A DNA stretch of 64,000 nucleotides from Candidatus Levybacteria bacterium RIFCSPLOWO2_02_FULL_37_18 (lineage in GTDB: Bacteria; Patescibacteriota; Microgenomatia; Levybacterales; UBA12049), in NCBI GenBank assembly GCA_001784115.1, contig MFPD01000019.1, forward strand, positions 30,244-94,243. The letters are read 5' to 3'. Of the stretch, positions 30,731-45,522 are shown piece by piece. The position numbers and the translations under genes are program-made. Numbering within the stretch: the first letter of the stretch is position 1; the number at the start of each line of letters is the position of its first letter. The notes under the pieces were generated by a model, which did no database searches, was not told the origin of the DNA, and was given only the letters and a program-made list of their open reading frames with translations.

Positions 30731-30733
30731 AAT

Positions 30734-31003: not shown

Positions 31004-31011
31004 ACAGAGTC

Positions 31012-32187: not shown

Positions 32188-32236
32188 CCCGGGCTTGACC
32201 CGGGATCAATAGATTCTGAATCAAGTTCAGAATGAC
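32183..32236. repeat. Palindromic intergenic element, copy F (GTCATCCCGGGcttgaCCCGGGATcaatagATTCTGAAtcaagTTCAGAATGAC)
   Basis: Lies between the aroD stop and the probable aroC start. Confidence 0.7.
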
Positions 32237-32237
32237 A

Positions 32238-32909
32238 TTATAATAACTCAAATATTTTCTCCAATTGTTTTTTTGTGAGCTGACCTTCTGCCGACTCTTC
32301 TGATTTTGTAATCGGCGCAAAAATCATTTCATTACCCCATATCGAACCGAAAATTCTCGTTACCATTCCAAAATTTCCCATTCCCAAAATAATGCACTTT
32401 ACATGTTTTTCTTTCATTGCCAAAAGCAACTCCAAAAGTCTTAATGCATCTTTTTGACTATTACACTTTGTTGCGATTTTAAAAATCGCAGGGGTGTATT
32501 GCTTCATTGTATCAAGAATTGCATAAAGCTTCTCATCTTCCGGAGTTTGGTCATAGTTATGATAAGAAATAATAGTTTTAATTTTAAGATCATTAGCTCT
32601 AATATACTCAAGCTCTTCTTTCTGATTAAATATATCTAAATCGAGTAGTGCTAAACTGTTGTTTAACAGAGAAATAATCTCTTGTCTTTTTTTTGAATTT
32701 AATTGAACTGCTTCCAGATTTTTTCTCCGGAAAACTAAAATAAGTTTTTCTCCCATTTGATCCGCTAGTTGTTTTACAAGCTCAACGTCAAGGTCTTTTA
32801 TATAATCCAACCACAGTTCAAAATAAGAATAATCTTGATTATTTTTAATAATCGCCACAATCTTCTCTTTTTTGTTTTTTACAATTGGCAGACAATAACG
32901 TATGTTCAT
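32238..32909 (-). CDS. aroD: 3-dehydroquinate dehydratase type I AroD
   Basis: 223-aa TIM-barrel-type sequence containing ISYHNY. Confidence 0.7.
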   Translation of the reverse strand: MNIRYCLPIVKNKKEKIVAIIKNNQDYSYFELWLDYIKDLDVELVKQLADQMGEKLILVFRRKNLEAVQLNSKKRQEIISLLNNSLALLDLDIFNQKEELEYIRANDLKIKTIISYHNYDQTPEDEKLYAILDTMKQYTPAIFKIATKCNSQKDALRLLELLLAMKEKHVKCIILGMGNFGMVTRIFGSIWGNEMIFAPITKSEESAEGQLTKKQLEKIFELL

Positions 32910-33721
32910 ACGTTTTTAAGAATAGCTTTTCTCATTGCTTCAACTGGCGCGTCAAAGCCTGTATATAATCTAAACTGTTGAGCACCCTGGTATAAAAGCA
33001 TTTCATATCCTAAGATTACTTGTGCGCCTTTTTCTTTGGCGTCTTTGATTAATCTTGTTTCTTTTGGGGTGTAAATAATATCAAACACAATGTGATCCTT
33101 ATTTAAGAACTTTTTATCAATTGGACTTTTATCTTCGTTCATACCAACAGAAGTAGCATTAATGAGTATATCCATATCTAAAACTTGTTCTAAAGAATCT
33201 AAGCCGCAGGCTCCACATGCAAATTCTTCAGCTAATGTATTTGCGTTTTTTAAAGATCTATTAAATAGAGTAATTATCGAACCTTTTTTCTTTAATCCAT
33301 AAATAATTGCCCGTGCAGCACCGCCTGCGCCCAAGAGTCCAACTCGTTTATTTTTTAGCTCTGTTTTTTTTTCTAGCGGAATCAGAGCACCTAACCAATC
33401 TGTGTTATATCCTTTTAATGCTCCGTTATCGTTTACAACAGTATTTACAGCGCCTATTTTCCTTGCAGTTTCATCAACCGTATCCATATATTTCATAATT
33501 TCAATTTTATGAGGAAGTGTTGCGCTTACTCCGGCTATCCCCATTGCTCTAACTCCCTTTATAAAATCGCTCATGTCTCTTATTTTTACATCGCAAGCAA
33601 CAAACACAAGCTCACTATCAATTCCCAAAGTTTTCAGTCCCGCATTGTGCATCTGAGGAGACAGCGAATGACCTATGGGATCACCAATTACCATACATAT
33701 TTTTGTTTTTGCAGTAATCAT
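32906..33721 (-). CDS. aroE: Shikimate dehydrogenase AroE
   Basis: 271 aa with a GLLGAGGAARA NADP-binding motif and an N-terminal substrate-binding domain. Confidence 0.85.
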   Translation of the reverse strand: MITAKTKICMVIGDPIGHSLSPQMHNAGLKTLGIDSELVFVACDVKIRDMSDFIKGVRAMGIAGVSATLPHKIEIMKYMDTVDETARKIGAVNTVVNDNGALKGYNTDWLGALIPLEKKTELKNKRVGLLGAGGAARAIIYGLKKKGSIITLFNRSLKNANTLAEEFACGACGLDSLEQVLDMDILINATSVGMNEDKSPIDKKFLNKDHIVFDIIYTPKETRLIKDAKEKGAQVILGYEMLLYQGAQQFRLYTGFDAPVEAMRKAILKNV

Positions 33722-35607
33722 AGTTTTAACAAAATCTCTTCAACAACTTCCTTAGGGCTTAATGTATCTGTTGCTATTATTTCATCTGCTGCCTGTCCAT
33801 ACAAGGTTTTTCGCTGTTTAAGAACCTCTCTTATTTCTTCTTTTCTGTTTTTTTTATTGGTTAAAAAGGGCCTATTTTTGGTATTGCCGGTTCTTTTTAC
33901 TAATGTTTCAACAGAAGCATCAAGCAAAACTAATGTGCCGCTTTTTTTAAGTGTGCTTACACTTTCTGTGTTAATAACAACTCCACCGCCCGTTGAAATA
34001 ATTGTATCAGAATATACGGCAACTTCTTTAACAACATCTGATTCTACTTTTCTAAAATAAGCCCATCCGTATTTTTCAACTATTAGAGCTATTGGCATAC
34101 CGACTTTTTTTGCCAACATCTCATCGAGTTCTATATGATTTTTTTGTAGTTTTTCCGCTAGCAGCTTTGCCACAGTTGTTTTACCGCTTCCCCGCATACC
34201 GATTAAAACAATATTTCTCCTCTTGTCGTTGCGATCCCGCTCAGCGGGAAAAGCAATCTCTGCGAGCTTCATCCAAAAATCAGGAAATGTTTTATTAACT
34301 ACCAAAGGGTTTTGTATTTCCATTCCCGAAAGCCTTGCACCGGCAACGGCAAAAGCCATTGCCATTCTATGATCTCCGTATGTTTCAATAGAAGCAGACT
34401 TTGGATTTCCTCCGTAAATTGTTAGAGTTGAATTGCTAGAGTCAGTTTTAATTCCCATTTTTTTTAATTCGTTTTTAATTGCCAAAAGCCGGTCTGTTTC
34501 TTTGATTTTAAGACTTTTAACACCGTGTATAATTGTAGTTCCATTTGCAAATGCGGCCAAAACCGAAAGGGTCATAACTTGATCCGGACAATTTTCCATA
34601 TTAACGTTTATAGGTCTTATTTTCCCCGAGCCTTTAACTGTCACTGCATTTTTTTTATACAATATTTTATTTCCCATTTTCTCTAAAATCTGCAAAAACT
34701 CTCTGTCAGCTTGCAAAGAATATGGATTAAGATTTTGGATTGTGATTGTTGAACCGGTCAAAGCAGCAATTGCAAAAAAATAAGAAGCGCTGGAAAAATC
34801 TCCTTCAACAGAATATTCTTTCCCGTTATATTTTTGTTTAAACATTTTATAACTTTTGTAGTTATTGTTAATTACGTTTGCTCCAAACTGTTTCATGGTA
34901 TCAATAGTCATATCAATATACTGCTTTGAAATTTGATCCCCCAAAACTTCAATCTCAACACTCCCTACTTTCGGAGCAATCATAAGCAAACTTGAAATAA
35001 ATTGACTACTAACTGATCCTTTTATTTTTACTGTTCCTTCGTTTAGTTTTGAACTTAAAATTTTAACCGGCGGATATCCTTTTTTACCAAGATATTCTAT
35101 TTTTGCACCCATTTGAATTAGGGCATCAACCAAATCTCCAATTGGACGATTGTTAAGTCCTTCTTCTCCAGATACTGTTTTAACTCCGGGAATAATGCAT
35201 GCAAGGGCTAAGATAAACCTCATGGTTGTTCCCGAAAGTCTAGCACTCAAAGAGTACGATTGATTATTCGCCTTGTTGTCATCCCGAACTCGCTTCAGCC
35301 GCGTTTGACGCGGTTTCGGCATCTCTTGTTTCAGCATTTTAGATCCTGAAATACCTTGCCTGCCGGCAGGCAGGAATTCAGGATAACCGGGAAAGATCTC
35401 TATGTAGTTATTTCCTACATGAACATTTACTCCCAGCGCTCTCAAACATCTTATCATCGCCTCCGTGTCTTCACTTACCAAAGGATTGATAATCGTAACC
35501 TTCTTTTCCGTCAAAGCAGCCAAAAATAAAGCTCTATTGGTGTAGCTTTTTGAGCCCGGTATGTCTATGGTTTTTGCAACTGGTTGTTGTAATGGAATAA
35601 TTTTCAT
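33718..35607 (-). CDS. aroA: Bifunctional EPSP synthase (AroA) - shikimate kinase (AroK) fusion; the AroA N-domain carries a ~45-aa palindromic-element-derived insertion
   Basis: 629 aa. The AroA core (IPGSKSYTNRALFLAAL ...) is followed by a C-terminal shikimate kinase P-loop (GMRGSGKTTVAKLLAEKL). The insertion FLPAGRQGISGSKMLKQEMPKPRQTRLKRVRDDNKANNQSYS is encoded by repeat copy G. Confidence 0.85.
   Translation of the reverse strand: MKIIPLQQPVAKTIDIPGSKSYTNRALFLAALTEKKVTIINPLVSEDTEAMIRCLRALGVNVHVGNNYIEIFPGYPEFLPAGRQGISGSKMLKQEMPKPRQTRLKRVRDDNKANNQSYSLSARLSGTTMRFILALACIIPGVKTVSGEEGLNNRPIGDLVDALIQMGAKIEYLGKKGYPPVKILSSKLNEGTVKIKGSVSSQFISSLLMIAPKVGSVEIEVLGDQISKQYIDMTIDTMKQFGANVINNNYKSYKMFKQKYNGKEYSVEGDFSSASYFFAIAALTGSTITIQNLNPYSLQADREFLQILEKMGNKILYKKNAVTVKGSGKIRPINVNMENCPDQVMTLSVLAAFANGTTIIHGVKSLKIKETDRLLAIKNELKKMGIKTDSSNSTLTIYGGNPKSASIETYGDHRMAMAFAVAGARLSGMEIQNPLVVNKTFPDFWMKLAEIAFPAERDRNDKRRNIVLIGMRGSGKTTVAKLLAEKLQKNHIELDEMLAKKVGMPIALIVEKYGWAYFRKVESDVVKEVAVYSDTIISTGGGVVINTESVSTLKKSGTLVLLDASVETLVKRTGNTKNRPFLTNKKNRKEEIREVLKQRKTLYGQAADEIIATDTLSPKEVVEEILLKL
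35278..35375. repeat. Palindromic element, copy G, inside the aroA coding sequence and in frame
   Basis: GTCATCCCGAACtcgcTTCAGcCGCGTTTGACGCGg ... cttGCCTGCCGGCAGGCagg. It shares the CGCGTYTGACGCG and CCTGCCGGCAGG modules with other copies. Confidence 0.65.
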
Positions 35608-35613
35608 ATTGTT

Positions 35614-36690
35614 TCAGGAAGCAACAAATTCCAAAGCTTTTTTTATGTTTTGATCAGATACTTCCTGCCCGGTCTGACACGTTCCAATACCAGAAAGAAG
35701 GGTAAAATACACAATTCCTCTTTCACTTTTTTTATCCGATTTAATTTTTTCCATTACTTTTTTATGATCAATATTCTGTGCTTTTGTCGGCAATCCTGCA
35801 TGCTCTAAAGCCTTTGTTATAGTTTCTAAATCCTCCTGTTTTAATATATTTTTCAGAACTGAAATCTTTCCTTCTGCAATCATACCAATACTTACAGCTT
35901 CCCCATGAAGCAACGGACTTCCTGACTCTAAACTCAAACTTTCCAAAGCATGACCAATGGTATGGCCAAAGTTAACGAGCCTTCGCCTATCTTTTTCTGT
36001 TACATCTTCTTCAACAATACATTTTTTTATTTCGATTGAACCACTAACGACTTTACTTAATTCTTTTTGACTAAACTCCTTTGGTTTTTTTGAAGTTACA
36101 AAATTAAAATAACTCCTATCTGCAATTGCACCGTGTTTGATAACCTCACCAAATCCTTCCGTAAGTATTCGGTCGGAAAGGGATTCTAGAACAGAAACAT
36201 CACACATAACCCCAATTGGCTGTCTAAAAACACCAATAAGATTTTTAACTCCCAAAAAATTAATTCCTGTTTTTCCGCCTATTGATGAGTCAACTTGAGC
36301 AAGCAAAGTAGTTGGAATTTGTAAGAAATCCAGTCCCCTCATGAATGTACTGGCCGCAAATCCACCCATATCTCCAATTACCCCTCCGCCAATATTAATA
36401 ACCAAAGATTTTCTGTCGCAACCAATTTCGAGCAACTGCCTCCATATTTCCAAAATGCACGTAATACTCTTTGCCCTTTCACCGCAAGGGATAATAATTG
36501 TTGAGATGTTTTGGGGAAAATACGGCACGATCTTTTTAAGAAATAAATTCTCAATGTGCGTATCTGTAATTACCACAATTTTAGAATAGGAATACAAATC
36601 AAACTTAGTAATTGCATCAAGAATTCCGCTTCCAACAAAAATTGGATATGATTTCTTATCTGATGCAATATTTATTTGTATCTTTCTCAT
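35614..36690 (-). CDS. aroB: 3-dehydroquinate synthase AroB
   Basis: 358 aa with a GGGVIGDMGGFAAS NAD-binding motif. Confidence 0.85.
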   Translation of the reverse strand: MRKIQINIASDKKSYPIFVGSGILDAITKFDLYSYSKIVVITDTHIENLFLKKIVPYFPQNISTIIIPCGERAKSITCILEIWRQLLEIGCDRKSLVINIGGGVIGDMGGFAASTFMRGLDFLQIPTTLLAQVDSSIGGKTGINFLGVKNLIGVFRQPIGVMCDVSVLESLSDRILTEGFGEVIKHGAIADRSYFNFVTSKKPKEFSQKELSKVVSGSIEIKKCIVEEDVTEKDRRRLVNFGHTIGHALESLSLESGSPLLHGEAVSIGMIAEGKISVLKNILKQEDLETITKALEHAGLPTKAQNIDHKKVMEKIKSDKKSERGIVYFTLLSGIGTCQTGQEVSDQNIKKALEFVAS

Positions 36691-37520
36691 GTTTTAAAAG
36701 GCAAATGCATTGTAGCTCCCCCAAAACCATGAACCAGTTTTGCCCGTTTTACTCTTTTTTTATACAGGCTTTTTAAAAGTCTTCTAAATTGCGACCAGGC
36801 AAGTTGTTGGATCGCGTCAGATAGAGCTTTTTTTGGATTTGGATGGACTTCGACTAGAAACCCATCAAACTCATGCTCATTTGCTTCATGTGTAATTTTT
36901 ATGACTTTTTCGATACTTCCACCTGTGTGGGAAGGGTCAAAAATCATGGCAAGTCCGGTTTTTTCCTTCATTCGCATTGCCATATTATAGTCCGGAACAT
37001 TTCTGTATCCTTGCGGATTATCACCAATTGGCGCAAATCCTCTGTGACAGAGAATAAGATGTGACTTTTTTATTCCACCGGATAAACAGTGTTCTACGAT
37101 TCCTTCCCAATGCTTTTCATTGTGCCATATCTGGTTTTTTACCATAAGAACAGTGCGCGGATTTCTTGCTGCAATCCTGGAAACTTCCCTTTGAATGTAG
37201 TGGTTTTGGTTTCTGGCTCCTATCCAAAGCATACATTTTCCGTTTTTTGTAGCAGTCATCACTGCGTCCATGGCTAGTTTTGCATGCTCAGGAATCATAG
37301 GCTCAACTGCTGGATTCACACCCATCTTGGCTGCCTCAACTAAAAGCTTTATTCCTTCTTCTCCAATTCCCTCAAATCCTGGCTTTGTCCGTGGTTTCCA
37401 TAGGCTGAGCCGAACGTACTCTACTCCAATTTTTTTTGCCTGTTTAACGGTTTCTAAAACCTGATCGCGCGACTCAACTGCGCATGGGCCTACGATGAGC
37501 ATTTTTTTAGGTATCTTCAT
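36687..37520 (-). CDS. 3-deoxy-D-arabino-heptulosonate 7-phosphate synthase (DAHP synthase, class I-beta, KDO8PS-like)
   Basis: 277 aa beginning LIVGPCAVESRDQ, a motif I associate with class I-beta DAHP synthases and KDO8P synthases. Confidence 0.75.
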   Translation of the reverse strand: MKIPKKMLIVGPCAVESRDQVLETVKQAKKIGVEYVRLSLWKPRTKPGFEGIGEEGIKLLVEAAKMGVNPAVEPMIPEHAKLAMDAVMTATKNGKCMLWIGARNQNHYIQREVSRIAARNPRTVLMVKNQIWHNEKHWEGIVEHCLSGGIKKSHLILCHRGFAPIGDNPQGYRNVPDYNMAMRMKEKTGLAMIFDPSHTGGSIEKVIKITHEANEHEFDGFLVEVHPNPKKALSDAIQQLAWSQFRRLLKSLYKKRVKRAKLVHGFGGATMHLPFKT

Positions 37521-37525
37521 ATGTA

Positions 37526-37556
37526 TAAAAAAACAAAAACTCCCTTCAGGGAGCTA
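37526..37556 (-). terminator. Intrinsic-terminator-like hairpin plus U-tract abutting the DAHP synthase start codon (candidate attenuator)
   Basis: Minus strand reads AGCTCCCTGAAGGGAGTTTTTGTTTTTTT and ends ~6 nt before the ATG. A second small hairpin, CTCCGAAGGGAG, lies ~50 nt upstream. Confidence 0.45.
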
Positions 37557-37738
37557 GCTTGGTCTATTCGTAATTGGTTTTACGACGTCAACAAGCCCTC
37601 CCTTCGGAGTTTATAAAATAAAACCAAAAATAAGCTTCGCGACTTATAATCACACTATAGGTATAGTATACAAAACTCTTTACTCTAAAGTCAAATTAGT
37701 ATTTTCATAAATAACTGTTCACAGTTCTAATACAGACT

Positions 37739-37833
37739 GTCATGCTGGAGTGTAAACGATAGCATCTAATTTTGGGAGGTGGTTCTTCGACCTGCCTGCC
37801 GGCAGGCAGGTCGGCCTTAAGCCTCAAGAATGA
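37739..37833. repeat. Palindromic element, copy M, in the aro-operon leader; includes a perfect 26-bp palindrome CGACCTGCCTGCCGGCAGGCAGGTCG (37788-37813)
   Basis: The ends GTCATGCTGGAG ... CTCAAGAATGAC form imperfect inverted repeats. The GC-rich palindrome is shared with copy G. Confidence 0.6.
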
Positions 37834-37917
37834 CAAGTTTATGTCAAAGGAGTAAACAGTTACCTTTATCTTTGACACCCTTGGGGTGGAAACGAAGCTG
37901 CACCCGCGGATTTTATG

Positions 37918-38709
37918 TTATTTTGAATCTAAATTCTTCATAAATTGTACAACGTTTTTTGAGATTTCAGATGGTTTTGAGAAGTTGATAATGTTAATAA
38001 TTGCGCTGCCTATTACAGCGATATCTGCATGTTTTTTAAGCGCTTTAACATGTTCTTTTTTGGAGATTCCAAAACCCACTGCAAGTGGAATAGAAAAATG
38101 TGAACGTACTTTTTTGAGGTATGAACTTAATTCTGGGTTCAATTCTTCTTTCACTCCTGTTATTCCCTGTCTGGCTGTACAATACACAAATCCTTTGGCG
38201 ATTTTTGCATTTTTTCGCAAACGTTGCTCTGTGGAAGCCGGAGAAATCACTTGAATGTTGTATAGATTAAACGTTTTACTATAAGCATAGAACTTTTCAT
38301 TTCCCTCTTCATCAATTGACATATCCGGAACAATAAGTCCAGAAATTCCTGCAGCTTTTGAATCTTTTATAAACTGTTTAATTCCGTACTTAAACACAGT
38401 ATTATAATACGCCATAAATAAAAGCGAAATAGAAACTTGAGAACTTAAATCTTTGGCAATCTTGAAGCAGTCTCTAACTTTTGTTCCATTATTCAAAGAT
38501 TTCTCGCATGCTTTCATAATTGTTGGCCCATCAGCCAAAGGATCGGAAAAAGGAATTTGAAGCTCGACAAAATCAGCTCCGCATTCTGCCATGGTTTTTA
38601 CTATTTGGACAGTTTTTTCAAGCGTCGGATATCCAACCACAACATGAGTCATGATTCCTAGCTTCTTATTTTTCTTGATTTCTGACAGTTTTTGATCAAT
38701 AGAGTTCAT
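37918..38709 (-). CDS. trpA: Tryptophan synthase alpha subunit TrpA
   Basis: 263 aa with ELQIPFSDPLADGPTI. Confidence 0.9.
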   Translation of the reverse strand: MNSIDQKLSEIKKNKKLGIMTHVVVGYPTLEKTVQIVKTMAECGADFVELQIPFSDPLADGPTIMKACEKSLNNGTKVRDCFKIAKDLSSQVSISLLFMAYYNTVFKYGIKQFIKDSKAAGISGLIVPDMSIDEEGNEKFYAYSKTFNLYNIQVISPASTEQRLRKNAKIAKGFVYCTARQGITGVKEELNPELSSYLKKVRSHFSIPLAVGFGISKKEHVKALKKHADIAVIGSAIINIINFSKPSEISKNVVQFMKNLDSK

Positions 38710-38780
38710 ATTTTATTGAATCATGTTGTATTGCTGCATTGCTAAATTGTTAACAATGAAGCAATCGAACAATTTAACAA

Positions 38781-40004
38781 TCATTGTGTGTACTCTTTCA
38801 AAAATTTCATAAATTTTTTATCGTTGAATGCTTTTGCCAAAATAAACAAATCCTTATCGCCTCTTCCGGAAAGATTGACAACAATTATTTTGTGTTTGGA
38901 AAGTTTTGGTGCAAGTTTTACAGCATGTGCTACTGCATGCGCAGATTCAAGCGCAGGAATAATTCCTTCTGTCCTTGCCAAAAGTCTTACTGCTTCTAAC
39001 GCTTCTCTGTCTTTTGAGCTTACAAATTCTACTCGATTTAAATCATGAAGGTTTGCAAGCTCTGGCCCAATACCCGGATAATCAAGCCCTGCAGAAATGC
39101 TGTAAGTTTTTTGCAGTTGGCCGTCTTTGTTTTGCAAAAAGTATGATTTATATCCCTCTACAATGCCGACCGAACCGCCTTTGAATCGTAACGCATGCTC
39201 ACCTACTTTTTCTCCTTTTCCTCCTGCTTCAACACCTATTAACGTTACTGTTGAGCTTTTTATAAACTCATAAAAAATTCCCATGGCATTGCTTCCTCCA
39301 CCAACACATGCGATAATATAATCGGGTAGTTTCCCTTCTCTTTTTTTCATTTGAACTTTTACTTCTCGTCCAACAATCGACTGAAAATCTCTATTCATTG
39401 TCGGAAACGGATGCGGACCCACAACCGACCCTAATACATAATGCGTATCTTTAACATTTTCTATCCAGTCTTTAATTGCAGCATTCACTGCATCTTTTAA
39501 CGTTTTACTGCCAAAAGCAACCGGAACTACAGTTGCACCTAACTGTTCCATTAAAAAAACATTCTGCCGCTGTCTTTGTATATCTACTTCTCCCATATAT
39601 ACTGTGCAGGAAAACCCGAGTTTTGCTGCAACTGTTGCAGTCGCAACGCCATGCTGTCCTGCTCCGGTTTCTGCAATAAGTCTTTTTTTGCCAATTTTTT
39701 TTGCAACCAAAGCTTGTCCTATACAATGAGTAATTTTATGAGCGCCGGTTAGGTTTGCTCCTTCATTTTTTAAATATATTTTTGCGCCACCTAATCTTTT
39801 TGTGAGGTTTTCAGCAAATACCAATGGAGTCGGCCTCCCTGCAAAATTATTGAGTAAATCGGTAAATTCTTTTTGAAAAGAATCATCTTTTTTTGCAACC
39901 GTGTATGCTTTTTCCAATTCTTCAAGAGCCGGAATTAACATCTCCGGGACATATCTCCCGCCGTATAGTCCGAAGTGACCATTATTTTGATGTTTATTTT
40001 TCAT
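38781..40004 (-). CDS. trpB: Tryptophan synthase beta subunit TrpB
   Basis: 407 aa with [13 protein letters not shown] and [11 protein letters not shown] motifs. Confidence 0.95.
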
Positions 40005-40054
40005 GATTATAAATTTTAAACATTAAAAATTGAATAAAAATTAAAAATTTCAAA

Positions 40055-40681
40055 TTAAAAATTCTTTTTCGCTTCTCTTATAAATTTTCTAATCTTTTCA
40101 ATATCTTGTTTTCCGTCTGTCTCGACCCCAGATGCGACATCTACAATCTGTGGTTTTACTTTCTTTATAACGTCTGCGACATTCTCTGGATTTAAACCTC
40201 CTGCAAAGATTAAAGGAAATTCTTTTGCTAAAACACTAGCTTTTTCTAAATTAATCATTTGCCCCTCGCTTTGTTCTATTCTGTCTAAAAGATAAACATC
40301 TACCTTAAACTGCTTCATTTGTTTTCTCGCATCTTCAATGTCAAAATCTCCTGGAAATCTAAATGCTTTTATTGTTTTTATTTTTATTTGTTTTATATAC
40401 TCCTGTGGTTCGTCACCATGAAACTGAGCGTAATCTAAATTACACGTCTCAATTATTTTCTGTACTTGATTAAGTGGCATATTTTGAAAAACGCCAACTA
40501 AATTAATTTTGCCTTTCAACTGTTTGCTAATTTCTTTTACAACCTCACTATCTACAGTATGAGTTTTAATACGTGGTGTAAATACAAACCCTAAAAAATC
40601 AGCACCACCTTCAAAAGCAACTTCTGCTGCTTCCAAACTTCTTGTCGCGCAAATTTTAACTTTTACTTTCATAGTTTTCAA
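40055..40681 (-). CDS. trpF: Phosphoribosylanthranilate isomerase TrpF
   Basis: 208 aa. The track start is a TTG; an ATG at 40670-40672 (MKVKVKICATRS) is a likelier start. Confidence 0.8.
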   Translation of the reverse strand: MKTMKVKVKICATRSLEAAEVAFEGGADFLGFVFTPRIKTHTVDSEVVKEISKQLKGKINLVGVFQNMPLNQVQKIIETCNLDYAQFHGDEPQEYIKQIKIKTIKAFRFPGDFDIEDARKQMKQFKVDVYLLDRIEQSEGQMINLEKASVLAKEFPLIFAGGLNPENVADVIKKVKPQIVDVASGVETDGKQDIEKIRKFIREAKKNF

Positions 40682-40684
40682 TCT

Positions 40685-40770
40685 GTCATTACGAGGAGGT
40701 CGCTTGATGCGACCGACGCGGCAATCTCCTAATCGTAAAACTACGATTGCTTCACTTCGTTCGCAATGAC
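40685..40770. repeat. Palindromic element, copy H; its distal inverted repeat encodes the last codons and stop of trpC
   Basis: GTCATTACGAGGaggtcgcttgatgcgaccgacgcgGCAATCTCctaatcgtaaaactacGATTGCttcacttcgtTCGCAATGAC. The coding strand of trpC ends ...ttg tca ttg cga acg aag tga (LSLRTK*). Confidence 0.7.
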
Positions 40771-41549
40771 AATATAAAATCTTTTATATTTTTCGCTTTC
40801 ATTAAACTCGTTCCCACAAGCACTCCTTTTGCTCCTGCTTCCCTATATTTTTGAACTTCTTGCGAACTTTTGATTCCTGAGAATCCCAGTTTTATAAATT
40901 TGTCTGGAACTTGTTTTAGAATTTCAGATGCTCTATCAACATCCACCTCAAAAGTATCCAAATCTCTTGCGTTAACTGCAATTATATATGGTTTTGAGTC
41001 GATCGCTCTTTCTATATGTTCTAAACTATCAATTTCAACAACTGGTTCAATACCTAAACCTATGGCATATTGAACTAATTCAGAAAGTTTTTTGTTACCA
41101 ACAATTCTTGCAATTAAAAGCACCGCATCAGCGCCTGATTTTATACCTTCGGCAATTTGATATGTATCAATAATAAAATCTTTCATAAGAATGGGAAGAT
41201 TGGTATTTTTCTTAATTTGATCAATTAGTTTAATATCTCCATTAAAAAAATGTTTTTCAACAACTAAAGAAATTGCATCAGCGTCTGCTTTTTCATATGC
41301 TTTTACCCGCTTTAGAATAGTTTTTTTTGAACCAAGATCTCCTTCACTTGGAGACGCTAACTTAATCTCCGCAATCAGAGTAATATCTTTTTTTGGATTG
41401 AGAATCGAATTCCTGAAATTACTCAAATTATAAACCGTTCCTTTTCGAGATTCTGGATGCGCCTTCGGCTTACCAGAATGACGTTTTTTTCTTTTTTTCA
41501 AATCTCTTTTTGTTTGCTCAACTATTTTTTGAAGTATTTTATTTTTCAT
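40752..41549 (-). CDS. trpC: Indole-3-glycerol phosphate synthase TrpC
   Basis: 265-aa TIM barrel. The C-terminus LSLRTK is contributed by repeat copy H. Confidence 0.85.
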   Translation of the reverse strand: MKNKILQKIVEQTKRDLKKRKKRHSGKPKAHPESRKGTVYNLSNFRNSILNPKKDITLIAEIKLASPSEGDLGSKKTILKRVKAYEKADADAISLVVEKHFFNGDIKLIDQIKKNTNLPILMKDFIIDTYQIAEGIKSGADAVLLIARIVGNKKLSELVQYAIGLGIEPVVEIDSLEHIERAIDSKPYIIAVNARDLDTFEVDVDRASEILKQVPDKFIKLGFSGIKSSQEVQKYREAGAKGVLVGTSLMKAKNIKDFILSLRTK

Positions 41550-42576
41550 ATTTTTGCGTTTCTTTTATTAATTGCTCTAATACTTGTTTTGCTTTTCCGC
41601 TATCAATTGCCTCTTGAGCCTTTTCAATTCCCTGCTCAATTGAGCTTGCTTTTCCAGCGACATATAATCCCAAAGCGCTGTTTAAAATAACAATATCACG
41701 ACATTGTCCTTTTTTACCATCTAAAACATTTAAAATAATCTCTGCATTCGTTTTCGAATCTGCTCCTTTTATTTTGTTTTGCGAAGCTTTTTTTACTCCA
41801 AAATCAGCAGGACTCACTATTCTTGATTTTATTTTTTTGCCTTGCACTTCGAGTACATGAGTTTTTGCAGAAATACTTACCTCATCCATTCCATCTTCAC
41901 TTGTTACCAATAACAAATGTTTATACCCAAATTCTTTACCAACACGTGCTAATTTTTTGGCTATAGAAAGATTTGGAACACCAATAATCTGCCTTTTTAC
42001 AGAAGCCGGATTTAAAAACGGACCAAGCAAATTAAAAATTGTTGGAATACCTAATTCTTTTCTAACAGAAGCTATAAATTTCATTGTCGGATGAAATAAT
42101 TGCGCGAATAAAAATACCATGCCTACTTTTTCTAAAACCAAACTTGCTTGAGAAGTGTTTAAATTAATATTCACTCCCAAACTTTCCAACACATCCGCGC
42201 TTCCACATTTACTGCTTGCTGCTCTATTACCATGCTTAGCTACCCTTACACCAGCTCCTGCAACTACAAATGCTGTTGCCGTAGAAATATTAAACGTCTG
42301 TTTTCCGTCTCCACCGGTACCACATACATCTATTGAATTTTTAACTTTTAACTTTGAACTTTGAACTTTTATCATATACTTCCTCATTCCTTCTATAAAC
42401 CCTACAATCTCCTCAGCTGTTTCTCCTTTTGACTTTAAAAGAATAAGAATTGCTGCCATTTGAGTAGGGCCAATCTTCCCCTCTGCCATTTGGCAAACAA
42501 GAAAAAAAGCCTCTTTCTGAGTAAGATTTTCTTTTGCTATTAATTTTATAAACAACTGTTTTGTATCCATATTCAT
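41539..42576 (-). CDS. trpD: Anthranilate phosphoribosyltransferase TrpD
   Basis: 345 aa with a DVCGTGGDGKQTFNISTA motif. It has an in-frame heptamer-repeat insertion encoding KVQSSKLKVKN. Confidence 0.9.
   Translation of the reverse strand: MNMDTKQLFIKLIAKENLTQKEAFFLVCQMAEGKIGPTQMAAILILLKSKGETAEEIVGFIEGMRKYMIKVQSSKLKVKNSIDVCGTGGDGKQTFNISTATAFVVAGAGVRVAKHGNRAASSKCGSADVLESLGVNINLNTSQASLVLEKVGMVFLFAQLFHPTMKFIASVRKELGIPTIFNLLGPFLNPASVKRQIIGVPNLSIAKKLARVGKEFGYKHLLLVTSEDGMDEVSISAKTHVLEVQGKKIKSRIVSPADFGVKKASQNKIKGADSKTNAEIILNVLDGKKGQCRDIVILNSALGLYVAGKASSIEQGIEKAQEAIDSGKAKQVLEQLIKETQKYEK
42333..42370. repeat. Tandem heptamer repeat (TTGAATT/TTTAACT/TTGAACT)x~5 in frame inside trpD
   Basis: ttgaatttttaacttttaactttgaactttgaactttt, encoding KVQSSKLKVKN. 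Confidence 0.8.
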
Positions 42577-42583
42577 CTACTTG

Positions 42584-42625
42584 TCATTGATTCCTTAATT
42601 GTCATTCTAAACTTGATTCAGAATC
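42584..42625. repeat. Palindromic element, copy I (GTCATTCTAAACttgaTTCAGAATC); one arm supplies the trpG RF* terminus
   Basis: The coding strand of trpG ends ...aga ttc tga within the TTCAGAATC arm. Confidence 0.6.
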
Positions 42626-43217
42626 TAAACAAAAAATTTTCAAGCATAATTTTTCCTGCTTCTGTTGCAAATGATTCCGGATGAAACTGAACTCCCTCAA
42701 TTGGATATTCCTTGTGTCTTAATCCCATAATCTCACCATCATCTTGTACTGTTGCTGTTATTTCCAAACAGTTGGGCAATGAACTTTTCTCCGCAATCAA
42801 AGAATGATATCGCATTACTTCTAAATTTTGCGGTAATCCAAAAAATACCCCCTTTCCATCGTGTTTAATAGTACTTGTTTTTCCATGCATTGGTTTTTTT
42901 GCTCTAACAACTTTTCCGCCGAAGTAATGCGCCATTCCCTGCATTCCAAGACATACACCAAGTATTGGAATGTGTTTTTCTAACTCTGTTAGAACTTCAG
43001 CGCAAGCTCCAAAGTATGCTTTATCAGCAGGATTACCTGGGCCAGGAGAGATAATAATTCTATCGTATTTTTTCTCTTGAATTTCGGAAAGCGTTATATC
43101 GTCATTACGAAAAACATCTACGGCAAATGGTTTTTCCCTTTGCTCTAAAATTTCTCCTACATACTGATATAAATTAAAAGTAAACGAATCGTAATTGTCT
43201 AGTATAAGTATTTTCAT
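42618..43217 (-). CDS. trpG: Anthranilate synthase component II (glutamine amidotransferase) TrpG
   Basis: 199 aa with a GVCLGMQ nucleophile elbow and an HPES motif. Confidence 0.9.
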   Translation of the reverse strand: MKILILDNYDSFTFNLYQYVGEILEQREKPFAVDVFRNDDITLSEIQEKKYDRIIISPGPGNPADKAYFGACAEVLTELEKHIPILGVCLGMQGMAHYFGGKVVRAKKPMHGKTSTIKHDGKGVFFGLPQNLEVMRYHSLIAEKSSLPNCLEITATVQDDGEIMGLRHKEYPIEGVQFHPESFATEAGKIMLENFLFRF

Positions 43218-44563
43218 AATTTTTTTAAAACTTCCATTATTGCTTTTAATTTTCTTTCAATTTCTTCATATTCCTTTTCTGGTTTTGAATCACAAACAAT
43301 TCCACCGCTTGTTTGGGTATAACCAAATTCACCTAAAAAAAATAAGGATCTGATTGCAATAGCAAATGTACAGTCACCATTAAAACCAAATTGTCCAACA
43401 GCCCCACCATATACACCCCGCGCCTCTTTTTCCAAGCTTTCAATTATTTTTATCGACTCTATTTTAGGAGCACCGGTTAAAGTACCTGCCGGAAAATTAC
43501 TTGCAAGCGCAGAAAACATTGTCTGCCCATTTTTCATAATTCCTACAATTTCGCTTGAAATATGCTGGACATGGGAAAATTTTTTTACATTCATAAAATC
43601 CCGTACTTTTACCGTCCCAAACTTTGCAACTCTTCCAATATCATTTCTATGCAAATCCACCAGCATATTATGTTCTGCTACTTCTTTTGAATCTGACAAT
43701 AAATCGCGGGCTAGCTTCTTATCTTCCTTAAGATTTTTCCCTCTTTTAATTGTTCCTGCTAAAGGTCTTGTTACCATTTCTCCATCCCGAAGAGAAAATA
43801 ATAACTCTGGTGAAGCACCAATTATCCTTTTTTTATTAAACTTTAAATAGTACATAAAAGGAGAAGGATTAATTTTACGAAGCCTTTCGTACATTAAAAG
43901 ACTATCTCCTTGTATTTTAAATTTTGTTTTAAATCCTACTTCGCATTGAAACGTATTTCCCAAGAGAATATGTTTTTGTACATTCCTGACTTGTTTTTCG
44001 TGTTCTGCTTTAGAAGAAGTATTTCCTAAAAATTTCGCTTTTAGCATTAGTTTTTTAGTAGGTTTTTTTAATAAATCTTTAAGTATTTCTATCCTGTTTT
44101 CGTCATAATAAAAATAAAACAATTCGTTGGTAACTTTGTCAAAAATTACGCCATCCGTATATACCCCAAACATAAATTGATCAAAATCGTGATTAACTTT
44201 AACCGACAAACTACTTTCAAAATAGTTAATTGCATCATAGGCAAGATAACCAACTAACCCCCCTGCATAATTTTTAGAAATTGTATAAGAAGGCATAATA
44301 TTTTCAAGAGCAAAATAGGGATTTTTAACCGGATATGCTATTCCGTCAAAAAATAGTAAATTTTCTCGTGCAGAAATTACGTGTTTTGGAGCAAGTCCAA
44401 TAATTGAATATCTGGAGAATTTTCCTTCCTCTCCCAATGATTCAAAAATAAAACACGTATCAAACTCTTGCTCTATTTTTTTAAACAGACCATGGAAATC
44501 AATATCTTGAGCAAAAGAGACATACGTTGGTTTCTTTTGTAATGTTATTTTTGGTAATTTCAT
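43214..44563 (-). CDS. trpE: Anthranilate synthase component I TrpE
   Basis: 449-aa chorismate-binding fold (GAVGQFGFNGDCTFAIAIRS). Confidence 0.9.
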   Translation of the reverse strand: MKLPKITLQKKPTYVSFAQDIDFHGLFKKIEQEFDTCFIFESLGEEGKFSRYSIIGLAPKHVISARENLLFFDGIAYPVKNPYFALENIMPSYTISKNYAGGLVGYLAYDAINYFESSLSVKVNHDFDQFMFGVYTDGVIFDKVTNELFYFYYDENRIEILKDLLKKPTKKLMLKAKFLGNTSSKAEHEKQVRNVQKHILLGNTFQCEVGFKTKFKIQGDSLLMYERLRKINPSPFMYYLKFNKKRIIGASPELLFSLRDGEMVTRPLAGTIKRGKNLKEDKKLARDLLSDSKEVAEHNMLVDLHRNDIGRVAKFGTVKVRDFMNVKKFSHVQHISSEIVGIMKNGQTMFSALASNFPAGTLTGAPKIESIKIIESLEKEARGVYGGAVGQFGFNGDCTFAIAIRSLFFLGEFGYTQTSGGIVCDSKPEKEYEEIERKLKAIMEVLKKL

Positions 44564-44569
44564 ATTTTT

Positions 44570-44830
44570 ATAAACAAAAACCCTTGTAAATTTCCAAACG
44601 TTTTCTGTTTGACTATTTACAAGGGCCTCTTAATGAGACGGTGCCACCTTGTTTATTTACTTATTCATGCTCTTCTTTTCTTAGTCCAGCCAAGCGGATA
44701 AAAAACAAAGAGTGCTGTCTTCTTAGGGTTTCGCCTCCCCCGCATTACGTCAGTCGCGTTTGACGCGATGAATTTTGCGAAAGCTTCCTGGATCCAAACT
44801 TCCAGATCACAGCTTTTAAAACTACATTAC
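44570..44830 (-). ncRNA. Candidate T-box riboswitch leader (tRNA-Trp sensing) with terminator and antiterminator, controlling trpEGDCFBA
   Basis: The minus strand has a T-box core AGGUGGCACCGUCUC, 9/10 match to GGUGGUACCG. Terminator: GGCCCTTGTAAAT ... ATTTACAAGGG + TTTTTGTTT ending 8 nt before the trpE ATG. The alternative antiterminator pairs ACAAGG with CCTTGT, leaving a UGGCACC bulge. A UGGA sits in an upstream hairpin loop (CTGGAaguuUGGAuCCAG). Confidence 0.55.
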
Positions 44831-44856
44831 ATGTAATATACCATATTGTTTCAGAT

Positions 44857-45522
44857 TTATAAAGCACCTTTACCCGATACCATTGCCCAAGGAGTTTTAA
44901 GGATTATGTACAAATCATAAAGAATCGAACGCTTATGCACATAATCCGCATCCATTTGAATTCGCTTGTCAAAATTAATCTCACTTCTTCCGGAAACCTG
45001 CCAAAATCCTGTGAGCCCCGGCTTTACCGACAACACAACTTTTGCCAGATCTCGAGTTTCAGGGTAACTTTTCTGCTGCTCCCTAAGCTCATCCGGATAA
45101 TATGCACGGGGTCCTACCAAACTCATTTCTCCTTTTAAAATATTCACCAGCTGAGGAATTTCATCCAGAGAATATTTTCGAATAAACCTTCCAACCAGTG
45201 TAATACGCGGATCGTCTTTTAATTTATAACTGCCTTTTTTATATATATTAAAAAGATCTGCATACTGGGGATTTTCACGTAAAATTTCATGCGCATTTTG
45301 CACCATAGACCTAAATTTATACATTTTAAAAAGTCTTCCACTTTTTCCTACTCTTTCAGGCGTATCCGCTAATATCGGCCCGATTGAATCAAGCACAATA
45401 GCCAGAACAATCAAAAGGATAATTGGGGAAAATAGTATTAAAAGAAAAAGAGAGAAAACAATATCAATCAATCGTTTTATAAACTCATAATATACACTTT
45501 TTTTTACTTGTACGTATACCAT
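44857..45522 (-). CDS. Bacterial sugar transferase (polyprenyl-phosphate hexose-1-phosphate transferase, WbaP/WcaJ C-terminal type)
   Basis: 221 aa with an N-terminal TM segment and a bacterial sugar transferase core (FKMYKFRSM ... VGPRA). Confidence 0.8.
   Translation of the reverse strand: MVYVQVKKSVYYEFIKRLIDIVFSLFLLILFSPIILLIVLAIVLDSIGPILADTPERVGKSGRLFKMYKFRSMVQNAHEILRENPQYADLFNIYKKGSYKLKDDPRITLVGRFIRKYSLDEIPQLVNILKGEMSLVGPRAYYPDELREQQKSYPETRDLAKVVLSVKPGLTGFWQVSGRSEINFDKRIQMDADYVHKRSILYDLYIILKTPWAMVSGKGAL

What the first reader, a model, noticed from the sequence alone, without database searches (positions are those of the whole stretch)
44570..44830. Tryptophan T-box riboswitch leader ahead of trpEGDCFBA
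The 293-nt spacer upstream of trpE, read on the minus strand, ends with a canonical intrinsic terminator. The stem GGCCCTTGTAAAT/ATTTACAAGGG with a 27-nt loop is followed by TTTTTGTTT, finishing 8 nt before the trpE ATG. Immediately 5' of it lies AAACAAGGUGGCACCGUCUC. This matches the conserved T-box core GGUGGNACCG.

The competing antiterminator can form by pairing ACAAGG with CCUUGU and UCUC with GAGG. That leaves the 7-nt UGGCACC bulge, whose UGGC would pair with the tRNA 3' GCCA (discriminator G). A UGGA tetranucleotide (Trp codon plus purine) sits in an upstream hairpin loop that could act as the specifier.

This places a Gram-positive-style tRNA-sensing attenuation mechanism on a complete trp operon.
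Basis: partly seen in the sequence, partly recalled or inferred. Interest (0 to 1): 0.55.

Follow-up and report, generated by a model that had tools for sequence, protein, structure and literature searches.

The report
Stripped-down tryptophan T-box in a CPR bacterium
The spacer before the tryptophan-synthesis genes is very probably a tRNA-sensing "T-box" RNA switch, but an unusually pared-down one that standard RNA databases miss, found in an ultra-small groundwater bacterium (Patescibacteria) where I found no published report of such switches.

Summary

**What is there**
- Window 44572-44816 (- strand) holds a K-turn-based Stem I with UGG+A in its apical loop.
- It also holds a textbook antiterminator (A1, 7-nt bulge UGGCACC, A2).
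- A much stronger terminator plus U-run overlaps it and ends 8 nt before trpE.

**Family evidence**
- The same leader sits upstream of trpE in 15 other contigs, all from Patescibacteria-like MAGs or metagenomes.
- Covariation is strong in Stem I, in a IIA-like hairpin, in a further hairpin, in A2 and in the terminator.
- UUGG+purine in the Stem I loop never varies.

**Host:** Candidatus Levybacteria (CPR).

**How it departs from canonical T-boxes**
- Rfam's T-box model scores only 27 bits against a gathering score of 93.
- Stem I lacks the entire tRNA-elbow-binding arm, like the Class III/IV ileS T-boxes of Actinobacteria, which mostly act on translation. Here the output is an intrinsic terminator.
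- Stem III is absent in most members.
- The "sensor" G·U pair is always Watson-Crick.
- Three relatives are ~100-nt minimal versions with no Stem II domain.

tRNA-Trp G73 could not be checked. Verdict: a new variant of a known kind, of moderate interest.

The parts
44835..44863 (-). Promoter-like site: TTTATA, 17-nt spacer, extended -10 (TGgTATATT). It overlaps the stop of the upstream sugar-transferase gene.
   Evidence: Relatives have clear TTGACA/TATAAT-type promoters 15-25 nt upstream of Stem I (read from the sequences). Inferred, not shown.
44780..44816 (-). Stem I, ultrashort. C-stem AAAGC/GCUUU; K-turn with 3-nt bulge UGU, 5' GA facing 3' AA; 5-pair upper stem UCUGG/CCAGG (a U·G pair, K-turn position 3b·3n, plus 4 Watson-Crick pairs); 10-nt apical loop AAGUUUGGAU.
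   Evidence: 88-90% of cells pair versus 71-73% in shuffles (0 of 500 reach the observed value). 7 of 10 pairs change on both sides. The UGA, the 3' G.AG and the loop UUGG are invariant in 13 leaders.
44794..44796 (-). Specifier codon UGG (Trp), followed by the purine A at 44793.
   Evidence: UUGG+R is present in all 14 leaders whose Stem I is available (L047 only). In L098 and L099 a hairpin is inserted 5' of it in the loop while UUUGGAA is kept. Function as specifier is inferred.
44741..44779 (-). Stem II-like hairpin: CGCA...UGCG closing an A-rich loop (AAA...GUAA) that in the window carries an extra CGCG/CGCG hairpin.
   Evidence: nearly invariant, so there is no covariation evidence either way. 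Relatives have loops AAAUACAUAA, AAAGUA or AAGUA, resembling the S-turn AGUA. Absent in L002, L050 and L106.
44725..44740 (-). Stem IIA-like hairpin GGGG/CCCU with conserved loop AGGCGAAA. An F-box-like CCCUAA follows at 44723-44728.
   Evidence: 100% paired, 3 of 4 pairs change on both sides. The Rfam model aligns it to Stem IIA. IIB pseudoknot pairing not established.
44670..44712 (-). Extra hairpin ('X') in the linker: outer stem CUCUU/AAGAG, invariant internal loop UGU/AG, variable inner stem.
   Evidence: 98% paired, 7 of 8 pairs change on both sides. I know of no counterpart in canonical T-boxes. Absent in the minimal relatives.
44660..44668 (-). Conserved AUGAAUAAG ending in the RAG motif (AAG). 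It is followed by a 7-nt A/U linker (44653-44659) where Stem III would be.
   Evidence: Invariant GAAURAG in alignment A2, also kept in the minimal leaders. RAG sits just 5' of Stem III and contacts the tRNA 3' end in Mtb ileS (PMC11297988). Some relatives, e.g. L001, L005, L047, L097 and L107, have a hairpin at exactly this site.
44619..44652 (-). Antiterminator: A1 ACAAGG/CCUUGU, 7-nt T-box bulge UGGCACC (44640-44646), A2 GUCUC/GAGGC with loop AUUAA.
   Evidence: 97.9% paired. The first A2 pair is G-C in 7 and A-U in 4 of the 11 aligned leaders (7 and 5 of 12 counting L005), never G·U.
44572..44627 (-). Intrinsic terminator. The interrupted hairpin at 44581-44627 shares GGCCCUUGU with the antiterminator. 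The U-run UUUUUGUUU is at 44572-44580.
   Evidence: -24.6 kcal/mol, z = -6.3. All 12 relatives have a terminator of -24 to -40 kcal/mol plus 5-7 U, with unrelated upper-stem sequences.
37918..44563 (-). Regulated genes trpE, G, D, C, F, B, A. Shikimate and aromatic-pathway genes (29314-37520) follow on the same strand.
   Evidence: Pfam. Co-transcription beyond trpA is inferred only from strand and spacing.

Best explanation
The leader is a tryptophan-specific T-box riboswitch that controls transcription read-through into trpEGDCFBA in a Candidatus Levybacteria (CPR/Patescibacteria) genome.

**Proposed mechanism**
1. Transcription starts about 15-20 nt upstream of Stem I.
2. The anticodon CCA of tRNA-Trp pairs with UGG in the apical loop of a very short Stem I that is built on a K-turn.
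3. The adjacent Stem II and IIA-like hairpins probably help clamp the codon-anticodon helix, as in Class III T-boxes.
4. If the tRNA is uncharged, its 3' GCCA pairs with UGGC of the 7-nt bulge and stabilises the weak antiterminator (-10.8 kcal/mol). RNA polymerase then reads through.
5. If the tRNA is charged or absent, the far stronger terminator (-24.6 kcal/mol plus U-run) forms and transcription stops 8 nt before trpE.

**Shown:** the sequence elements, their mutually exclusive folds, their conservation and their covariation.

**Inferred:** tRNA binding, charge sensing, and that the output is termination rather than translation.
For: - **Rfam:** the T-box model aligns over its full length, with E = 3e-4 for the region and the 3' half at the highest posterior probability. 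It is the only notable RNA hit in the window.
- **Folds:** antiterminator and terminator fold as predicted.
- **Recurrence:** the same architecture lies upstream of trpE in 15 other contigs with different upstream genes.
- **Model R1:** a discriminator model finds L005, which it was not built from, at 57 bits. It also finds four new loci at 39-75 bits.
- **Covariation:**
  - Stem I: 88.5% of cells paired versus 71.5% in shuffles, score 0.545 versus 0.186, 0 of 500 shuffles as high.
  - IIA-like hairpin and hairpin X: 97.3% versus 70.1%.
  - A2 and the terminator upper stems differ in sequence but always pair.
- **Specifier:** UUGG+purine is invariant in the Stem I loop while the 5' half of the loop varies and tolerates a 13-nt insertion. 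The codon matches the regulated pathway.
- **Bulge:** UGGC in 11 of the 12 leaders examined, UGGU in 1. TBDB reports C or U opposite G73 for Trp T-boxes (PMC7778990).
- **RAG motif:** conserved.
- **Rivals excluded:** no tandem-Trp leader peptide and no TRAP-type triplet repeats in any of the 14 class-A leaders scanned.
Against: - The Rfam score of 27 bits is far below the gathering score of 93. Four relatives give no T-box hit at E <= 0.1.
- Stem I lacks the distal elbow-binding module, which the review PMC7583486 calls essential for transcriptional T-boxes.
- Stem III, called indispensable for tRNA 3'-end binding, is absent in the window.
- The G·U pair described as the primary steric sensor of the aminoacyl group is G-C here, and never G·U in this family.
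- tRNA-Trp of this organism was not available.
- There is no experimental or transcriptomic evidence.
Confidence: 0.85

Rival explanations
1. It is a decayed T-box relic. The terminator and antiterminator remain, but tRNA is no longer sensed productively. Read-through is then constitutive and leaky, or set by another factor such as a protein that binds the K-turn or the conserved AUGAAURAG.
For: Several parts considered essential are missing: the distal Stem I, Stem III and the G·U sensor pair. Small palindromic hairpins are inserted at varying sites in relatives, which could indicate relaxed constraint.
Against: UUGG+purine, the K-turn, RAG and the 7-nt bulge are invariant across leaders whose TrpE proteins are only 62-81% identical. 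Stems covary, which indicates purifying selection on exactly the tRNA-contacting elements. In L002 versus L050 the linker has many substitutions while Stem I and the antiterminator have none (sequences).
Confidence: 0.08
2. It is a T-box that acts mainly on translation, like other short-Stem-I (Class III/IV) T-boxes. The 'terminator' hairpin would act as a sequestrator of the ribosome-binding region.
For: [quoted passage not shown] In L100 and L039 the 3' arm of the hairpin (AAGG) lies close to the ATG. The window has no obvious Shine-Dalgarno sequence between the U-run and the ATG.
Against: Every member has a strong hairpin with a G+C-rich base, followed directly by 5-7 U. Several members have their own Shine-Dalgarno sequence downstream of the hairpin and outside it: L002 AAAGGA, L004 GGAG, L001 AAGGA, L099 AAGGAGG. 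In the window the hairpin ends 17 nt before the ATG.
Confidence: 0.05
3. It is a chance GGTGGCACC next to the ordinary terminator of the upstream sugar-transferase gene.
For: GGTGGNACC alone is expected 0.44 times in the window. The Rfam score is sub-threshold.
Against: The whole architecture is conserved with covariation upstream of trpE in 15 other contigs. Their upstream genes differ: MurL (L104), GreA (L106) and an AbiEii-like gene (L099). A promoter-like site lies between the upstream gene and Stem I.
Confidence: 0.01

Closest known systems
Class III / Class IV T-boxes (ileS leaders of Actinobacteria: Nocardia farcinica, Mycobacterium tuberculosis; Actinomyces odontolyticus), as defined in PMC10482949
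   Same: Short Stem I on a K-turn with no elbow-binding double T-loop (IDTM). The Specifier is in the apical loop (window and most relatives), or in a side bulge between two helices (L098, L099, and the second leader class in L006, L036, L044 and L045). Stem II and a IIA-type hairpin follow Stem I. The RAG motif and the 7-nt T-box bulge are present.
   Different: - The specifier is Trp on a biosynthetic operon, not Ile on ileS.
- The expression platform is an intrinsic terminator, not a Shine-Dalgarno sequestrator.
- The apical loop has 9-10 nt rather than 5-6 (6 nt is possible in L004 and L005).
- Stem II is a 3-4-bp mini-hairpin rather than a long stem with a mid-stem S-turn.
- There is an extra covarying hairpin in the linker.
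- Stem III is usually absent.
- The A2 base pair is Watson-Crick.
- The host is CPR rather than Actinobacteria.
- Three relatives lack the Stem II domain altogether, although Class III is said to require it.
Class I Trp T-boxes on trp operons and trpS of Firmicutes (RF00230; TBDB 'Trp' family)
   Same: Same logic and the same regulated pathway: UGG specifier plus purine, UGGC/UGGU bulge, antiterminator against terminator, location directly upstream of trpE.
   Different: [quoted passage not shown] It also has a full Stem II with S-turn, Stem III and G·U at the base of A2. The Rfam model built on these scores the window at only 27 bits.
Class II glyQS T-box (Bacillus subtilis, Geobacillus)
   Same: Transcriptional. 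The minimal relatives (L002, L050, L106) likewise replace the Stem II domain with a short single-stranded linker.
   Different: glyQS compensates with a long Stem I and the elbow contact, plus a strong GGC:GCC pairing. The minimal CPR leaders have neither the long Stem I nor Stem III.
E. coli-type trp control (TrpR repressor plus trpL leader-peptide attenuation)
   Same: It senses Trp supply for the same operon. Sister CPR lineages with closely related TrpE use exactly this in place of the T-box.
   Different: It is mediated by a protein and the ribosome rather than by direct RNA-tRNA contact. It is not present in the window's leader.

Membership tests
T-box leader (Rfam RF00230) | Covariance-model score at or above the curated gathering score | tested here: not met
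   27 bits versus 93. E = 3e-4 for 421 nt and 0.047 for the 64-kb window. The full model 1-219 is matched, but 74 Stem I positions are replaced by 8 nt.
T-box leader (general) | T-box sequence forming an antiterminator: helix A1, a 7-nt bulge UGGNACC, helix A2 | tested here: met
   ACAAGG / UGGCACC / GUCUC-AUUAA-GAGGC / CCUUGU. This is the minimum-free-energy fold of the isolated segment. 97.9% of cells pair across 11 leaders.
T-box leader (general) | A mutually exclusive, more stable terminator (or sequestrator) sharing the 3' strand of the antiterminator | tested here: met
   -24.6 versus -10.8 kcal/mol, with the shared strand GGCCCUUGU and a U-run. The same holds in all 12 leaders examined.
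T-box leader (general) | Stem I with a K-turn (GA motif) at its base | tested here: met
   A covarying C-stem, a 3-nt bulge, an invariant 5' GA facing a 3' GA (AA in the window, L097 and L050), then U·G or A·G.
T-box leader (general) | Specifier codon matching the regulated amino-acid pathway, followed by a purine | tested here: met
   UGG+A/G is present in all 14 leaders whose Stem I is available, upstream of trpE. That it base-pairs with the anticodon is inferred.
T-box leader (general) | The variable base of UGGN pairs with the discriminator base of the cognate tRNA | not testable with these tools
   No tRNA gene is present in the window, in +/-10 kb of its contig, or in 32 related loci. 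C (11 of 12) or U (1 of 12) is compatible with the G73 that TBDB reports for tRNA-Trp.
T-box Class I/II (transcriptional) | Long Stem I with a distal AG bulge and distal loop (IDTM) that stacks on the tRNA elbow | tested here: not met
   Stem I is 37 nt in total: K-turn, 5-pair upper stem, apical loop. No member has a distal arm.
T-box Class I/III | Stem II with an S-turn, followed by a Stem IIA/B pseudoknot and F-box | tested here: inconclusive
   The IIA-like hairpin covaries (100% paired), and an F-box-like NNNUAA follows it. Stem II is a near-invariant mini-hairpin with an A-rich or AAGUA-type loop. I could find no consistent IIB pairing by inspection of A2. The whole domain is absent in L002, L050 and L106.
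T-box discriminator domain | RAG / purine string, then Stem III, then AA, immediately 5' of helix A1 | tested here: inconclusive
   RAG is invariant at the end of GAAURAG. Stem III is absent in the window, where a 7-nt UAAAUAA linker stands in its place, and in most relatives. It is present at that site in some, e.g. L001, L005, L047, L097 and L107.
T-box discriminator domain | A G·U wobble pair at the base of helix A2 (steric sensor of the aminoacyl group) | tested here: not met
   G-C in 7 and A-U in 5 of the 12 leaders examined, never G·U. The second leader class keeps G·U.
T-box Class III (PMC10482949) | Short Stem I without IDTM, with the Specifier in a 5-6-nt apical loop | tested here: inconclusive
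   The short Stem I and the apical-loop Specifier are met. The loop, however, has 9-10 nt. It is 8 nt if A-U closes it in the window, and 6 nt is possible in L004 and L005.
T-box Class III/IV (PMC10482949) | Regulates translation initiation ('mostly') | tested here: not met
   A terminator hairpin plus U-run is present in every member, and a separate Shine-Dalgarno sequence lies downstream in several. This rests on sequence inference only.

The most novel reading that the evidence does not exclude
These leaders define a further architectural class of T-box. It would be a transcription-terminating switch that recognises tRNA-Trp with only a K-turn, a 5-pair upper stem and an apical specifier loop. 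It would have no tRNA-elbow contact, no Stem III and no G·U sensor pair. In its minimal ~100-nt form (L002, L050, L106) it would also lack any Stem II domain. If these minimal leaders truly sense tRNA charging, they are the smallest natural T-boxes. They would also show that several elements now regarded as essential are dispensable.
Probability: 0.4. Interest if true: 0.75.

Novelty: new variant of a known kind. Interest (0 to 1): 0.55.

Why it matters
**For T-box mechanism.** Current reviews hold three things:
- Transcriptional T-boxes need the long Stem I and its elbow contact to capture tRNA fast enough.
- Truncated Stem I's need Stem II.
- Stem III and the A2 G·U pair are integral to charge sensing.

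A conserved, covarying family that pairs an ultrashort Stem I with an intrinsic terminator, and drops these parts to different degrees, gives a natural deletion series to test those rules. It also gives a compact scaffold for engineering.

**For annotation.** RF00230 at its gathering score misses all of these leaders. TBDB's short-Stem-I model was run only on Actinobacteria. T-box regulation outside Firmicutes and Actinobacteria is therefore probably under-counted.

**For CPR biology.** It shows a Levybacteria genome with a complete trp-plus-shikimate gene block under amino-acid-responsive RNA control. Sister lineages have swapped in a TrpR and leader-peptide system on the same operon.

Tried and rejected
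- **Rfam at gathering score on the whole window:** nothing. Rfam at E <= 0.1 on L001-L005: no T-box hit.
- **GGTGGNACC as a stand-alone signal:** at chance level, so not used as evidence.
- **tRNA-Trp search:** ARAGORN on the window, on 30 related loci and on +/-10 kb of the window's own contig found no tRNA at all.
- **Leader-peptide attenuation and TRAP-type (G/U)AG repeats in class-A leaders:** none found. The only longer ORF with a Trp codon in the window's leader (MRGRRNPKKTALFVFYPLGWTKKRRA) is not conserved.
- **Stem IIB pseudoknot:** I looked by eye in alignment A2 for a linker segment complementary to the AGRCGAAA loop. GUC pairs with GRC in only 3 of 10 leaders, so no pseudoknot is claimed.
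- **Hairpin X as Stem III:** rejected, because the RAG motif lies 3' of it and a separate hairpin occupies the Stem III site in some relatives.
- **Other T-boxes in the window or in about 50 held loci:** the specifier-independent discriminator model R1 found none beyond the trpE leaders. The minus-strand hits are the palindromic terminators.
- **Literature:** no paper in the searchable library links T-boxes to Patescibacteria or CPR. Sherwood 2015 (PMC4313828) and Vitreschak 2008 (PMC2271356) are not held, so earlier reports of short-Stem-I terminator T-boxes cannot be excluded.
Full report
**1. The observation**

On the minus strand, the 293-nt spacer 44564-44856 lies between a Bac_transf sugar-transferase gene (44857-45522) and trpE (43214-44563). 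Pfam confirms trpE, G, D, C, F, B and A in that order.

- AAACAAGGUGGCACCGUCUC, with the bulge UGGCACC at 44640-44646.
- The pairings ACAAGG/CCUUGU and GUCUC/GAGGC.
- A hairpin at 44581-44627 followed by UUUUUGUUU, then 8 nt to the ATG.
- UGGA at 44793-44796 in the loop of an upstream hairpin.

Folded alone, the antiterminator segment adopts exactly the T-box shape: A1 of 6 bp, a 7-nt bulge, A2 of 5 bp and a 5-nt loop, at -10.8 kcal/mol. The terminator segment folds at -24.6 kcal/mol with z = -6.3.

One correction is needed.

**2. Database test**

Rfam at gathering score finds nothing in the 64-kb window. With permissive thresholds the T-box model RF00230 matches 44618-44819 (-) over its full length. 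The score is only 27 bits against a gathering score of 93, with E = 3e-4 for the region and 0.047 for the whole window.

The alignment shows why. The 3' half aligns at the highest posterior probability. In Stem I, 74 model positions are replaced by 8 nt. Stem I here is a 37-nt hairpin (44780-44816). The 9-mer GGTGGNACC alone is at chance level, so the case rests on the whole architecture and on comparison with relatives.

**3. Host**

The window's TrpE is 100% identical to a protein that NCBI names as from 'Candidatus Levybacteria bacterium RIFCSPHIGHO2_12_FULL'. The contig is MFNN01000017.1 of GCA_001783775.1. Levybacteria belong to the Microgenomates group of the Patescibacteria, also called CPR. 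Window G+C is 32-38%.

Downstream of trpA, on the same strand, lie these genes:
- DAHP synthase
- DHQ synthase
- an EPSP-synthase/shikimate-kinase fusion
- shikimate dehydrogenase
- DHQase I
- chorismate synthase
- a prephenate dehydrogenase/dehydratase fusion

**4. A family of leaders**

TrpE relatives at 57-81% identity were fetched from genomes, metagenomes and assemblies. Four kinds of upstream region appear.

- **Class A**, like the window: L001, L002, L004, L005, L039 (5'-truncated), L047, L050, L097, L098, L099, L100, L103 (5'-truncated), L104 (identical to L105), L106 and L107. With the window that makes 16 leaders.
- **Class B:** a second T-box type in L006 (= L043), L036 (= L049), L044 and L045. 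Rfam scores these at 33-45 bits.
- **Class C:** a TrpR-family gene with a palindromic operator, in L003 (= L041), L037, L046, L101 and L102, and in true gammaproteobacteria.
- **Class D:** no leader, with trpE following trpA- or trpB-like genes (L038, L040, L086).

Upstream genes differ among class-A loci, for example MurL, GreA and an AbiEii-like gene. The element therefore travels with trpE and not with the upstream gene.

**5. Stem I**

In an alignment of 13 leaders the structure reads as follows:
- a C-stem;
- a 3-nt bulge;
- a 5' GA facing a 3' GA, which is AA in the window, L097 and L050;
- a U·G or A·G pair;
- 4 Watson-Crick pairs;
- a 9-10-nt apical loop ANGKUUGGRN.

This is a K-turn directly supporting a short helix and the loop. 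88.5% of cells pair versus 71.5 +/- 2.3% in column shuffles. The covariation score is 0.545 versus 0.186, and 0 of 500 shuffles reach it. 7 of 10 pairs change on both sides. Sliding the partner columns drops pairing to 57% or less (an 11-sequence version is).

The K-turn UGA, the 3' G.AG and the loop UUGG are invariant. A purine always follows UGG. The 5' half of the loop varies. In L098 and L099 it accepts a 13-nt palindromic hairpin while UUUGGAA stays on the 3' side. That pattern is what a specifier codon would show.

**6. Middle modules**

Long members have the following, in order:
- a small Stem II hairpin (GCA...UGC) with an A-rich loop, which reads AAGUA or AAAGUA in L104 and L107;
- a hairpin NNN(N)-AGRCGAAA-NNN(N) followed by NNNUAA, which Rfam aligns to Stem IIA and the F-box;
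- a further hairpin 'X' with an invariant UGU/AG internal loop;
- an invariant (C)AUGAAURAG.

On 8 leaders the IIA-like hairpin is 100% paired, with 3 of 4 pairs changing on both sides. Hairpin X is 98% paired, with 7 of 8. Overall pairing is 97.3% versus 70.1% in shuffles, 0 of 500. Stem II hardly varies, so it is uninformative. I could not establish a IIB pseudoknot.

The trailing RAG corresponds to the conserved RAG just 5' of Stem III that contacts the tRNA 3' end in the M. tuberculosis ileS T-box (PMC11297988). A hairpin occupies the Stem III site in some relatives, for example L001, L005, L047, L097 and L107. In the window and most others that site is a 5-8-nt A/U linker.

**7. Discriminator and terminator**

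All 12 leaders examined share these features:
- A1 NNAAGG/CCUUGU.
- A 7-nt bulge: UGGCACC in ten, UGGUACC in L039 and UGGCACA in L001.
- An A2 helix of 3-6 bp whose sequence varies but always pairs.
- A terminator of -24 to -40 kcal/mol with 5-7 U, whose upper stem is unrelated in sequence between members.

On the alignment, 97.9% of antiterminator cells pair.

The A2 pair next to the bulge is G-C in 7 and A-U in 5 of those 12 leaders, never G·U. In canonical T-boxes this position is a conserved G·U, described as the primary steric sensor of the 3'-aminoacyl group (PMC7583486). Class B keeps G·U.

A discriminator model built from 11 class-A leaders (R1) gave these results:
- L005, which was not used to build it: 57 bits.
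- Four newly fetched loci: 39-75 bits.
- Class-B leaders: 20-31 bits.
- Elsewhere in the window and in about 50 loci: nothing.

**8. Minimal members**

L002, L050 and L106 go straight from Stem I through a 15-20-nt linker ending in RAG to the antiterminator. The whole leader is about 100 nt. It has no Stem II, no IIA-like hairpin, no hairpin X and no Stem III.

Between L002 and L050 the linker carries many substitutions, while Stem I and the antiterminator carry none. This argues for selection on those two parts.

**9. Mechanism**

The best explanation is a Trp-specific T-box acting on transcription termination.
- Uncharged tRNA-Trp would pair CCA with UGG in the Stem I loop, and GCCA with UGGC in the bulge.
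- That would stabilise the weak antiterminator against the strong terminator.

The choice of termination rather than Shine-Dalgarno sequestration rests on two points. A U-run follows the hairpin in every member. Several members also have their own Shine-Dalgarno sequence downstream of the hairpin.

No tandem-Trp leader peptide and no TRAP-type triplet repeats occur in class-A leaders.

tRNA binding and charge sensing are inferred. The tRNA-Trp gene could not be found in any sequence available here. TBDB reports C or U opposite G73 for Trp T-boxes (PMC7778990), which agrees with 11 C and 1 U among the 12 bulges.

**10. Comparison with known T-boxes**

PMC10482949 distinguishes four classes.

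| Class | Stem I | Specifier position | Stem II domain | Usual output |
|---|---|---|---|---|
| I | long, with IDTM | internal loop | present | transcription termination |
| II (glyQS) | long | as Class I | absent | transcription termination |
| III | short, no IDTM | 5-6-nt apical loop | required | mostly translation |
| IV | intermediate | side bulge | similar to III | mostly translation |

The window's family works like a T-box and has a Class III-like decoding end. L098, L099 and class B are Class IV-like. It differs from Classes III and IV as follows:
- it is joined to a terminator;
- it is specific for Trp;
- it has a larger apical loop;
- it has a mini Stem II and an extra hairpin;
- it has usually no Stem III and no G·U pair;
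- it is found in CPR.

TBDB ran its short-Stem-I model only on Actinobacteria. No paper in the searchable library links T-boxes with Patescibacteria or CPR. The two key older papers were not available, so earlier mention of similar leaders cannot be excluded.

**11. Verdict**

The element is best filed as a new variant of a known kind: a T-box with Class III/IV-like decoding and transcriptional output. Interest is moderate.

The most novel reading still open is that the ~100-nt minimal leaders are functional. If so, they would define a further T-box class and show several 'essential' parts to be dispensable.

Noticed in passing
L037 ~1020-1369; L046 ~250-591; L101 851-1200; L003 ~2880-3000; L102 ~1090-1200: Sister CPR trp operons without the T-box carry a TrpR-family gene (PF01371) behind an ATACTAGTA-type palindrome. 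They also carry tandem Trp codons just upstream of a hairpin plus U-run that abuts the trpE ATG. In L037, L046 and L101 the WW sits in the C-terminal tail of the TrpR-like ORF itself (...TSWW[RHQ]xLSxMRG*). In L003 and L102 it is a separate mini-ORF (MKNKTKNNWWDDKLC*, MYKSNKNIAAWWNLSKRG*). This looks like trpL-type leader-peptide attenuation, in some lineages fused to the repressor gene.
   Followed up: partly
L036 2740-2990; L044 ~170-410; L006/L043 2040-2340; L045 ~60-360: A second T-box type lies upstream of trpE in other Patescibacteria contigs. It has a canonical-looking 3' half: AGUGA S-turn, CCGUAA F-box, Stem III, and ACCGCG...CGUCC with G·U. Its Stem I is again short, with AAUGG/GUUGG as a 3'-side bulge between two helices (Class IV-like), and it also has a terminator. 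Rfam scores it at 33-45 bits, below the gathering score.
   Followed up: partly
L001, L005, L047, L100 (CTTCGTTAAAGCTACGAGG-like); L097, L098, L099 (CGCCAGYTGGCG): Small palindromic hairpins of two sequence types recur at different positions in different leaders: the Stem I loop, the Stem I base, the Stem II tip, the tip of hairpin X, the Stem III site and downstream of the terminator. They look like REP- or MITE-like insertions that the leader tolerates.
   Followed up: no
window 29314-44563 (- strand): A CPR genome carries a contiguous, same-strand block of trpEGDCFBA plus a full shikimate pathway and a prephenate dehydrogenase/dehydratase fusion. This is unusual for a group generally described as lacking many biosynthetic pathways.
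   Followed up: partly
L002, L003, L004 (record titles) versus L007-L012, L034: MAGs titled 'uncultured Gammaproteobacteria' with 34-38% G+C carry TrpE at 62-66% identity and leaders like the Levybacteria one, so the label is doubtful. Real gammaproteobacteria (Gilvimarinus, Reinekea, Pokkaliibacter; 50-53% G+C) have TrpE at 55-59% identity with a TrpR-like gene and a GTACTAGTAC operator. This suggests horizontal exchange of this trp operon between CPR and Gammaproteobacteria. Thaumarchaeota are next, at about 40%.
   Followed up: no
window 44564-44580: No recognisable Shine-Dalgarno sequence lies between the terminator U-run and the trpE ATG (UUUAUAAAAAUAUG), although several relatives have AAGGA or GGAG there.
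   Followed up: no
L108 15356-20976 (beyond window coordinate 1): Just outside the window's low end, after ftsA and ftsZ, lies a phage-type integrase. It is followed by small HTH and unannotated ORFs, a Schlafen/AlbA_2-domain gene and a trypsin-like protease gene. This may be an integrated element. ARAGORN finds no tRNA beside it.
   Followed up: no
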